Positions 14,991-16,529 of a stretch of 64,000 nucleotides of DNA are shown here, in pieces. Each line of letters opens with the position of its first letter. The first letter of the stretch is position 1. Both the position numbers and the translations under genes were made by a program. The DNA is taken from positions 62,248,001-62,312,000 of the forward strand of contig OX597818.1 in the NCBI GenBank assembly GCA_951406725.2. Reading direction: 5' to 3'. The notes beneath the pieces are model-generated. The model did no database searches, had not been told where the DNA came from, and saw only the letters and a program-made list of their open reading frames with translations. This DNA is from Octopus vulgaris (lineage: Eukaryota).

Positions 14991-15959
14991 CTGTCTTAGC
15001 CTTTGAGGCAAATAATTAAGAAAATGCATTTTCACTTCATAAAAATGTAGACGTAAAACAAAGATTCCTATCTGAAAGAAGAATTCATTAATTTGTCTTT
15101 TTTCGTTTGTATTGTTTTTAATTTTATTTTTCGAAATATCATTTGTTATTATCAGCTTTAATATAAATTTTAACAATGATAAATTTAAATAAAAACACAA
15201 TAGCACAAACCTCATAAGTCTAAGACAGAAATACAAAATAAACAGTTTATTTATCTGTTATTTCCTTTTCGATCTTTGTCGATGTTAAATGTAAGTAATA
15301 GAACGAGTTTCTATTATTTCAATCTTTAGAAATACGGTGAATGACATAATTGTTAGAGTGTGTGAACAAATGCTCTCAGTGTCTAATTTCTGATATGTTT
15401 AAATGCTAGATAAATTGCTGAATAAAATGTCCAGCCCTCCACTAATTGCTTTCAGTCAGGTTGTAGAGCAAGTTAACACAGCAACTCTTCTGCATTTAAT
15501 CACATTGTTACCAAAACATTCATGCGACTTTTTTCTGTTTTGTCGAAATGTCGGACGATATAGAAATCGTCTTTTTACGTTGTGAAATATTGCCTGGCAT
15601 TACACCAACCATTCCTTTGTCTCCTATCAAAATAACGAAGAACATGACAAACGTCCTTACGTCTGCTGCCAAAATGCCGTACAAGGTGCCAAGCGTTCCT
15701 TTGCGTCCAACTAAAAATTCAGGTCACCTTGCCATGGGTCACTTTCATTCTACCACAATACCCGAAAACATGCCATATTATCAAATTCTCCATGGCTTTT
15801 ACTAGGTTTATCAGTTTCAGAGGAAATATTACTTTCCCGTAAAATAATCAAAGCGAATCTAATGATAATACAGTTCTATATTTAAGAGATGAGGAATTAT
15901 GTACGTTATTTACATTATTTACATTTGACGAATATTTGTCCTCATCTTGTTTGTTATTT

Positions 15960-16003
15960 ACACAACGTTTCGACTGATATACTCTCCAGCCTTCATCAGG
16001 TGT
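15960..16003 (-). ncRNA. Minimal type I HHR, canonical core (family F1)
   Basis: acac-CTGATGA-a-ggctg gagagtatat cagtc-GAAA-cg-TT-gtgt. Confidence 0.85.
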
Positions 16004-16252
16004 CTTGGGGAAATTTCGAACGTGGGATCTCATTCCTAAGGTGTTTTTGATGTTGTTGTTATTGTTGTTATTATTATTATTATTATTATTATTATTATTA
16101 TTATTATTATTATTATTATTATTATTACCATCATCATCATCATCATCATCATCATCATCATCATCATCATCATCATCATCATTATTATTATTATTTATAT
16201 TATTATTATTATTATTATTATTATTATTATTTATATTATTATTATTATTATT

Positions 16253-16327
16253 CAGGCCACTGCTTGGAATCAAACTCGGAAACTTGGAGTTAGTAGTCCG
16301 CGCTCTTAACCAGTACGCCATATGCCC
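16253..16327 (-). promoter_or_regulatory. tRNA-like Pol III internal promoter (A and B boxes)
   Basis: gggcata-tggcgtactgg-ttaagagcgcggactactaactccaagtttcc-gagtttgattcc-aagcagtggcc. Confidence 0.7.
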
Positions 16328-16529
16328 GAAAAATACCGTAGGAATGAGAACCCAGGTTCGAAATTTCCCCAAGACACCTGATGAAGGCTGGAGGGTGTAT
16401 AATAACATTGATATTATTAACGCTAACCATTCTTCGAACAATAATAACAGCAATATTAATATTTCTTATATAAATTCGAATCGTATTCGTTTCCTTAATA
16501 GTAATTCTAAGACTAAGTACATCCGGTTC

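What the first reader, a model, noticed from the sequence alone, without database searches (positions are those of the whole stretch)
15868..16400. Penelope 3' module combining a tRNA-like Pol III head, (AAT)n and a hammerhead, also found without the ORF
Seen: on the minus strand, a tRNA-like segment (16327-16253; A box tggcgtactgg, B box gagtttgattcc) is followed by (AAT/GAT)n and a canonical HHR (16003-15960). The same tRNA-like remnant lies ~30 bp after the GIY-YIG stop codon of the Penelope at 5194. ORF-less copies occur at 47283 and 62133. An inverted partial copy (16328-16400) abuts the head. Inference: this Penelope has captured a tRNA-derived promoter in its pLTR, so the module could act as a Pol III-transcribed, ribozyme-processed SINE mobilised by a PLE instead of a LINE, reminiscent of schistosome Sm-alpha.
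Basis: partly seen in the sequence, partly recalled or inferred. Interest (0 to 1): 0.7.

Follow-up and report, generated by a model that had tools for sequence, protein, structure and literature searches.

The report
Octopus Penelope end with tRNA remnant
This is the end piece of a Penelope-type jumping gene, likely from an octopus, with a decayed tRNA-like segment ahead of a predicted self-cleaving ribozyme; the segment might serve as a second promoter, but the gene-less copies here are likely ordinary truncations rather than a separate SINE family.

Summary
The anatomy is real; the SINE reading is not yet supported. On the minus strand: tRNA-like head (16327-16252), microsatellite, spacer, hammerhead (16003-15960), about 100 nt tail, plus an inverted partial copy (16328-16400). 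The hammerhead is the minimal, dimer-dependent PLE type, not canonical. The head keeps 20 of 24 tRNA invariants but no cloverleaf, and both boxes carry a mutation here. The same head lies 29 nt after the stop of a Penelope/Poseidon-type ORF (6018-5194), with a 35-nt deletion and no hammerhead. Antisense-ORF database records (P0014, P0026) join ORF end, head and, in P0026, hammerhead and tail, so the head belongs to the element's pLTR. A more distant record (P0019) shows the same order. The copies at 47283 and 62133 have no head. Only 1 of 4 ORF-less pieces starts at the head, on a short hairpin. Best reading: a 5'-truncated insertion, with the usual inverted partner, of an octopus PLE whose pLTR absorbed a tRNA-derived segment. 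A Pol III-driven, PLE-mobilised SINE stays possible (about 0.25). Ten literature searches found no tRNA-bearing pLTR; Repbase and Dfam were not checked.

The parts
16328..16400 (+). Inverted partial copy: spacer, stem I arm, hammerhead core and half of stem II; head-to-head with the main copy
   Evidence: 66 of 73 identical to the main copy, 68 of 73 to the 47283 copy; 1-2 nt shared at the junction
16252..16327 (-). tRNA-like head; boxes kept, stems lost; G15 and C56 mutated in this copy
   Evidence: 20 of 24 invariant positions; acceptor, D, anticodon and T stems pair 2/7, 1/4, 2/5, 2/5; 21.2 bits, 13 equal sites in 100 shuffled windows
16310..16320 (-). A-box-like motif (tRNA positions 8-19)
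   Evidence: position 15 is C here, G in the 5164 copy
16266..16276 (-). B-box-like motif (positions 52-62), 44 nt from position 8
   Evidence: 10.1 bits here, 19.0 bits in the copy behind the ORF; position 56 is T here, C there
16053..16251 (-). (AAT)n(GAT)n(AAT)n(AAC)n microsatellite, 199 nt
16004..16052 (-). Spacer shared by four of the five pieces; holds the ATG used by two octopus gene models
15960..16003 (-). Minimal type I hammerhead: 4-bp stem I, CUGAUGA plus one extra base, 6-bp stem II, GAAA, palindromic AACGUU in place of stem III; predicted cut after GUU, between 15964 and 15963
   Evidence: fits the PLE min-HHR consensus in the supplement of PMC4209133; cleavage untested
15862..15959 (-). 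Tail, likely the first ~100 nt of the element unit, with a predicted stem-loop; 3' end shared with the 62133 copy
   Evidence: z -2.3, 6 of 200 shuffles as good
5194..6018 (-). Decayed, 5'-truncated Penelope/Poseidon-type ORF (RT C-terminus and GIY-YIG region), stop at 5196-5194
   Evidence: tblastn of P0002, E 6e-69
5165..5193 (-). 29-nt 3' UTR; its end forms a short hairpin with the first bases of the head
   Evidence: matched by P0004, P0005, P0010, P0016
5124..5164 (-). Second head with a 35-nt deletion that joins A box to B box
   Evidence: 40 of 47 identical
5025..5123 (-). (AAC/AAT)n and first 38 nt of spacer; then the 3' part of an abundant unrelated SINE (5024-4886); no hammerhead
47284..47575 (+). 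Headless copy: microsatellite, spacer, hammerhead with GAAA to GAAG, shorter tail; preceded by an opposite-strand SINE ending at 47282
   Evidence: 155 of 176 identical to the main copy
62125..62263 (+). Headless copy starting in stem I, core GAAA to AAAA, same 3' end as the main copy; fused to a SINE fragment
   Evidence: 121 of 136 identical

Best explanation
15862-16400 is the 3' end (pLTR part) of a Penelope/Poseidon-type retrotransposon with a tRNA-like segment built into it, and it likely arose as an ordinary 5'-truncated insertion with an inverted partner, made by the element's own RT and GIY-YIG enzyme from a longer element RNA. Shown: the order ORF, stop, 29 nt, tRNA-like head, microsatellite, spacer (window, 6018-5025) and head, microsatellite, spacer, minimal hammerhead, tail (16327-15862); the two halves are bridged by record P0026. 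Inferred: an ancestor of the family took up a small tRNA-derived SINE (head plus AAT tail) just after its stop codon, and it has been copied with the pLTR since. Inferred by analogy with the anole element PAc: reverse transcription starts internally about 100 nt past the ribozyme, which fixes the 3' end, then stops at variable points, giving 5' ends in the ORF, at the UTR/head hairpin, in the microsatellite, at the spacer or in the ribozyme. A second priming event would give the inverted piece. The ribozyme would cut only as a dimer or with protein help.
For: Head homologous at both loci. P0014 matches head (p 0.001) and ORF end in one frame; P0026 matches tail, hammerhead and ORF end (each p 0.005) with A and B boxes between (0 of 40 shuffles). 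Five pieces, five different 5' ends; 2 of the 3 that reach the tail share the 3' end, the third ends about 10-20 nt earlier. Inverted 5'-truncated partner and an optional tail are typical of PLEs (PMC8557442 passages); opposite-strand min-HHR pairs 100-700 bp apart were reported (PMC4209133), here 379 bp. PAc starts RT 111-118 nt into the ORF, 85-92 nt past the ribozyme cut (PMC11167929); here 87-100 nt. Both ends of the insertion sit on ATT-containing sequence, the cleavage preference reported for PAc. The 5' end at 16327 falls on a short UTR/head hairpin and shares 1-2 nt with the inverted piece.
Against: The only copy with a full head and no ORF starts within 1-2 nt of tRNA position 1, which random truncation over about 500 nt would give in roughly 3% of sets of four (my rough estimate, post hoc). 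Boxes are kept while stems are lost, the pattern taken as a sign of promoter function in PMC10886601. P0019, a more distant record, has a tRNA-like segment at the same place (0 of 300 shuffles), which is hard to explain as a passive passenger unless it is one old capture. Two of the 5' ends (47284, 62125) abut other SINEs and may be rearranged rather than original. No locus in the window shows ORF, head and hammerhead together.
Confidence: 0.62

Rival explanations
1. The head is a working Pol III promoter inside the pLTR. It makes a short RNA from position 1 through microsatellite, ribozyme and the RT start site, which the PLE protein inserts in trans: a SINE-like by-product of the autonomous element, the PLE counterpart of Cassandra/Helenus.
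For: Main copy starts at position 1; ancestral boxes look intact (G15 and C56 present in the 5164 copy, and implied by the P0014 and P0026 peptides) at 44-nt spacing; stems lost; no run of four T in the 462-nt module; same order in P0019; a short RNA holding the region after the ribozyme is enough for PAc insertion in vitro (PMC11167929).
Against: 1 of 4 ORF-less pieces starts there; the T4-free state is uninformative (1170 of 2000 shuffles); both boxes are mutated in this copy and their spacing is deleted in the other; a search for further head-bearing records returned only the 2 inputs among 94 candidates, so no second position-1 junction was seen; no expression data.
Confidence: 0.25
2. The head acts at RNA level, as a tRNA mimic cut by RNase P at position 1 (or as a folding element), so Pol II read-through RNA is trimmed to a unit that begins at the head.
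For: Would also explain a 5' end at position 1; RNAfold pairs the two ends of the head region.
Against: No cloverleaf: stems pair 7 of 21 positions; fold energy is not unusual (19 of 200 shuffles as good); ARAGORN and Rfam negative.
Confidence: 0.07
3. Head, microsatellite and hammerhead form an independent SINE or retrozyme that landed behind the Penelope ORF at 5194 by chance.
For: The window copy behind the ORF is incomplete, and the window is full of SINEs.
Against: P0014 and P0026 repeat the same ORF-to-head junction; P0013, P0019 and P0026 place a homologous hammerhead downstream of related ORF ends; the ribozyme is of the PLE minimal type; no tandem array as in retrozymes.
Confidence: 0.04

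Closest known systems
Penelope/Poseidon-clade PLEs (D. virilis Penelope, Anolis PAc, fish Poseidon/Xena)
   Same: RT followed by C-terminal GIY-YIG region; minimal type I hammerhead in the terminal repeat; 5' truncation; inverted partner; 3' end about 90-100 nt past the ribozyme
   Different: A tRNA-derived segment plus microsatellite between stop codon and ribozyme; not mentioned in the parts of PMC4209133, PMC8557442, PMC11167929 that I read or term-searched
TRIMp3 elements (Cassandra, Helenus, Ajax; PMC10886601)
   Same: Small-RNA-derived promoter boxes inside a terminal repeat, boxes conserved and fold lost, proposed origin by SINE insertion
   Different: Those are non-autonomous LTR elements with PBS, PPT and TSD; here the segment sits in the pseudo-LTR of a coding PLE next to a ribozyme
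Schistosome Sm-alpha / Sj-alpha
   Same: tRNA-derived sequence and a type I hammerhead in one short repeat (PMC2770079, PMC8490949 passages)
   Different: Sm-alpha has a canonical, tested ribozyme and is described as a SINE-like family of over 10,000 copies with no ORF link in the passages I saw; here the ribozyme is minimal, untested, and physically part of a PLE
Animal non-LTR retrozymes (PMC7229834; bioRxiv 10.64898/2026.07.22.740005)
   Same: Short ORF-less type I hammerhead sequences related to PLE pLTRs
   Different: Defined by tandem units with at least two ribozymes; none here; no tRNA head mentioned in the preprint's main text
Octopus tRNA-derived SINEs (OK, OR1, OR2; names from the reference and passage in PMC4758252, otherwise recalled)
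   Same: tRNA-like heads with the same box spacing in the same window
   Different: Only weak similarity to this head (nhmmer E 0.2-1); I could not match window families to these names

Membership tests
Penelope-like element, EN+ (Penelope/Poseidon clade) | RT followed by C-terminal GIY-YIG endonuclease in one ORF | tested here: met
   Decayed fragment aligns to P0002 residues 167-446, E 6e-69; P0002 has RVT_1 and its nearest Atlas clusters carry RVT_1, HTH_animal and, in 14-28% of members, GIY-YIG; Pfam gave no hit for the 87-aa window piece alone
Penelope-like element, EN+ (Penelope/Poseidon clade) | Placement in the Penelope/Poseidon clade by RT phylogeny | not tested
   Clade name rests on domain order and on the cysteine pattern before the nuclease motif (recalled criterion); no tree was built
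Penelope-like element, EN+ (Penelope/Poseidon clade) | Minimal type I hammerhead in the pLTR | tested here: met
   consensus; link to ORF through P0026, P0013, P0019, not within one window locus
Penelope-like element, EN+ (Penelope/Poseidon clade) | Partial tandem pLTR-ORF-pLTR structure | not testable with these tools
   No full-length element in the window; no eukaryotic genome collection available
Penelope-like element, EN+ (Penelope/Poseidon clade) | 5' truncation with adjacent inverted copy and optional tail | tested here: met
tRNA-derived SINE (SINE2) | tRNA-derived head with A and B boxes | tested here: met
   20 of 24 invariants; modest significance for this copy alone; second copy and P0014 add support
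tRNA-derived SINE (SINE2) | Many dispersed copies with a common 5' end at the head | tested here: inconclusive
   1 of 4 ORF-less pieces starts at the head; sample too small, leaning against
tRNA-derived SINE (SINE2) | Pol III transcription | not testable with these tools
   No T4 run in the module, but 1170 of 2000 shuffles share that
tRNA-derived SINE (SINE2) | LINE-derived 3' end with simple-repeat tail and target-site duplication | tested here: not met
   3' end is PLE sequence; only a 6-nt AT-rich overlap at the ends, part of which may be element sequence
Non-LTR retrozyme | Tandem units, at least two complete type I hammerheads | tested here: not met
   One intact motif in the window, no tandem array
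Non-LTR retrozyme | Self-cleavage and circular RNA | not testable with these tools
   No assay possible
TRIMp3 (Cassandra/Helenus/Ajax) | Two true LTRs with PBS, PPT and TSD | tested here: not met
   No direct LTR pair at the locus; resemblance is one of design only
Functional tRNA gene | Cloverleaf fold | tested here: not met

The most novel reading that the evidence does not exclude
A lineage of Poseidon-type PLEs keeps a tRNA-derived Pol III promoter in its pLTR, upstream of the hammerhead and the RT start site, so each element also makes a short RNA that its own enzyme inserts as a SINE-like unit. This would be a SINE nested in, and moved by, a Penelope element rather than a LINE, present in more than one family (P0019), and a candidate origin for Sm-alpha-like repeats.
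Probability: 0.25. Interest if true: 0.75.

Novelty: new variant of a known kind. Interest (0 to 1): 0.5.

Why it matters
How PLEs are transcribed and what their hammerheads do is poorly known. A tRNA-derived box pair at a fixed place in the pLTR gives a directly testable promoter candidate, and would extend to PLEs the small-RNA-promoter-in-terminal-repeat design known from Cassandra and Helenus. If position-1 copies form a family, SINEs can be driven by a third class of retrotransposon. Even on the ordinary reading it matters for annotation: some of the many unclassified octopus SINE families or tRNA pseudogenes (893 recently active unclassified SINE families in PMC13282606, Table 1) may be PLE ends, and the module has been pulled into at least two octopus gene models.

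Tried and rejected
Rfam: whole window (top 150 of 234 rows seen, nearly all microRNA models, no tRNA or hammerhead), 601-nt region, head alone and hammerhead alone: no tRNA or hammerhead family. ARAGORN default 0 genes; relaxed thresholds give 24-293 calls, mostly noise, head not among the 24 at -ps80. MAFFT misaligned the two heads; replaced by a long-gap pairwise alignment. The cluster look-up for P0001-P0003 could not be made, so their organisms are unknown. Whether the tail frame (open in two copies) is the PLE N-terminus: no full-length PLE protein found (only 5 candidates, no usable hit), left open. A tRNA-like segment in P0012, P0013, P0021, P0025, P0028: suggestive peptides by eye, but not significant (best: P0012 and P0025 1 of 40, P0028 p 0.03), so not counted. 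P0019's segment is not detectably homologous to this head (p 0.14). P0026 fails the fixed-spacing test (190 of 300) and the head-homology test (p 0.20), likely because of an insertion between its boxes. T4-free state rejected as evidence. Target-site duplication: none convincing at any of four loci. The parent tRNA was not identified: the loop reads ACT, and no eukaryotic tRNA set was available. PMC5785218 was not held.

Full report
Observation. Read on the minus strand, the locus runs: inverted piece (16400-16328), tRNA-like head (16327-16252), 199-nt microsatellite (16251-16053), 49-nt spacer, hammerhead motif (16003-15960) and a tail to about 15862. BLAST and nhmmer with the unique parts find five pieces of this family in the window: the main copy, the inverted piece, 47284-47575, 62125-62263 and the piece behind the ORF at 5164-5025. 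Pairwise identity among those that overlap well is 87-95%, so the insertions are old. The head occurs in only two of the five. The copy at 47283 begins in the microsatellite, next to an opposite-strand SINE of another family; the copy at 62133 begins inside stem I, fused to a SINE fragment.

The ribozyme. The motif has a 4-bp stem I, the CUGAUGA core plus one unpaired base, a 6-bp stem II, GAAA and a palindromic AACGUU in place of stem III, with a predicted cut after GUU at 15964/15963. It was the only match to my descriptor on both strands, with 0 matches in 40 shuffled windows. These are the traits of the minimal PLE hammerhead, which shows no cleavage as a monomer and low cleavage as a dimer (PMC4209133, parts 1-2 of 4 read; consensus and mollusc examples from its supplement file 2; file 1 could not be searched). 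Rfam did not detect it. The cores at 47453 and 62136 are mutated and the inverted piece ends in loop II. Cleavage is untested.

The head. It has 20 of 24 invariant or semi-invariant tRNA positions (list recalled from textbook numbering) with 44 nt between positions 8 and 52, but its four stems pair at only 7 of 21 positions. ARAGORN and Rfam do not call it. A box profile trained on 16 E. coli tRNAs gives 18.4 bits, with 1.7 equal sites expected per shuffled window, so that test alone is not significant. A fixed-geometry invariant model gives 21.2 bits, matched by 13 sites in 100 shuffled windows, and ranks it among the window's SINE heads. Two of its misses, G15 and C56, are intact in the second copy, and the peptides of P0014 and P0026 imply the same by eye. 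The ancestral head thus likely had good boxes, while this copy's promoter is likely impaired.

The element. 6018-5194 on the minus strand is a decayed, 5'-truncated ORF that aligns to the RT-bearing protein P0002 (E 6e-69; 63-67% identity over the last 87 residues to P0001-P0003; RVT_1; nearest Atlas clusters RT/HTH_animal/GIY-YIG). The head starts 29 nt after its stop, 40 of 47 bases identical apart from a 35-nt deletion between the boxes; no other of 1262 tiles scores half as well. That copy ends in the spacer, where the 3' part of an abundant SINE begins at a short shared motif, so no window locus joins ORF and ribozyme.

Outside evidence. No animal genome collection was available, so I used spurious antisense ORFs as proxies for other copies. 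A search with the antisense frame over the head remnant, UTR and ORF end gave 34 records; I dropped P0008 (an unrelated repeat protein) and scored 33 by degenerate back-translation. All 33 match the ORF end; 4 match the UTR; 1 (P0014) matches the head; 3 (P0013, P0019, P0026) match the hammerhead; 1 (P0026) matches the tail (p<=0.01 of 200 shuffles). P0026 holds tail, hammerhead, A and B boxes (0 of 40 shuffles) and ORF end in the window's order. P0019 has the best tRNA score of the 33 (24.2 bits, 0 of 300 shuffles) between ORF end and hammerhead, but is not detectably homologous to this head (p 0.14). Caveats: the query included the head remnant, which favours P0014 and P0026; many records begin too close to the stop to show a head; several that extend further show none, or only a non-significant B-box-like peptide; P0026 fails two of the three head tests; the organisms of these records are unknown. 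A search with the tail frame returned two named proteins, from Octopus sinensis and O. bimaculoides, that start at the spacer ATG. The family is thus in at least two octopus species, and the window is likely octopus. A search for more head-bearing records returned only the two inputs among 94 candidates.

Mechanism. Everything about the insertion fits ordinary PLE behaviour: heavy 5' truncation, an inverted 5'-truncated copy directly adjacent and an optional tail (PMC8557442, 12 of 13 passages); opposite-strand ribozyme pairs 100-700 bp apart (here 379 bp); internal RT initiation 85-92 nt past the ribozyme cut at ATT-rich targets, with cleavage not required for insertion (PMC11167929, parts 1-2 of 4; here 87-100 nt). 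The five pieces have five 5' ends. The one at 16327 lies within 1-2 nt of tRNA position 1, which favours Pol III initiation, but also on a short hairpin formed by the UTR end and the head start, with 1-2 nt shared with the inverted piece, which favours a template switch. I therefore take truncation of a PLE with a captured tRNA-derived segment as most likely (0.62), a working Pol III unit moved in trans as the main rival (0.25), an RNA-level tRNA mimic (0.07) and chance adjacency (0.04) as minor. Head followed directly by (AAT)n looks like a complete small SINE, which suggests capture by insertion, as proposed for TRIMp3 elements; this step is inference.

Known relatives and novelty. It is a PLE by the features I could test; the clade name rests on domain order, not a tree. 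It fails or does not yet meet the tests for SINE, retrozyme, TRIMp3 and tRNA gene. It works like a PLE pLTR and is built like a Helenus LTR (PMC10886601, passages and Discussion). Sm-alpha is the nearest tRNA-plus-hammerhead repeat (passages of PMC8490949 and PMC2770079; the 1998 paper itself not read). Retrozymes as PLE derivatives are described (bioRxiv 10.64898/2026.07.22.740005, parts 1-2 of 5 and a term search with 0 hits for tRNA or Pol III; its supplements are closed; PMC7229834 passages). Octopus repeat papers (PMC13282606 part 1 of 3, passages and supplement passages; PMC8967140 passages) and two SINE papers (passages) did not mention such an element in what I saw. Ten full-text searches listed no paper on a tRNA-bearing pLTR. 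Subscription journals, Repbase, Dfam, SINEBase and PMC5785218 were out of reach, and a Repbase entry may well exist.

Verdict. Observation partly confirmed, interpretation partly supported. New variant of a known kind: a PLE pLTR with a built-in tRNA-derived segment, seen in one octopus family and probably in one more distant family. Interest 0.5; a genome-wide plot of 5' ends would settle whether it is also a PLE-driven SINE.

Noticed in passing
2313-2512, 11941-12064, 26186-26320, 30583-30754, 39503-39622: A second, unrelated five-copy family with a minimal-hammerhead-like motif (U at core position 6) ending about 100 nt later at (TA)n; looks like 3' ends of another PLE.
   Followed up: partly
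16004-16052 (spacer); records P0038, P0039: Two annotated octopus proteins start at the spacer ATG and run through the ribozyme frame into unrelated host domains: exonisation or mis-annotation.
   Followed up: partly
5024/5025, 47282/47284, 62124/62125: Three of five pieces are joined directly to other SINE families, two at short shared motifs and one head-to-head like an inverted partner; possible template switching onto SINE RNA or later recombination.
   Followed up: partly
15872-16033 and 47404-47553: The frame from the spacer ATG through ribozyme and tail is open in both copies; it could be the element's N-terminus, but no full-length protein was found.
   Followed up: partly
records P0012, P0013, P0021, P0025, P0028: Other related families show B-box-like or A-box-like antisense peptides after the ORF end; not significant in my tests, worth checking in DNA.
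   Followed up: partly
1186-1324, 3426-3757, 38021-38402, 49527-50825, 55168-55215, 56957-57087: Self-matching stretches, at least some long inverted repeats, MITE-like.
   Followed up: no
51522-52037 (-): 171-codon open frame that resembles the C-terminus of a LINE protein (recalled resemblance).
   Followed up: no
1812, 4532, 22261, 29189, 35365, 40094 and others: Several well-preserved tRNA-derived SINE heads of other families, scoring 26-34 bits.
   Followed up: no
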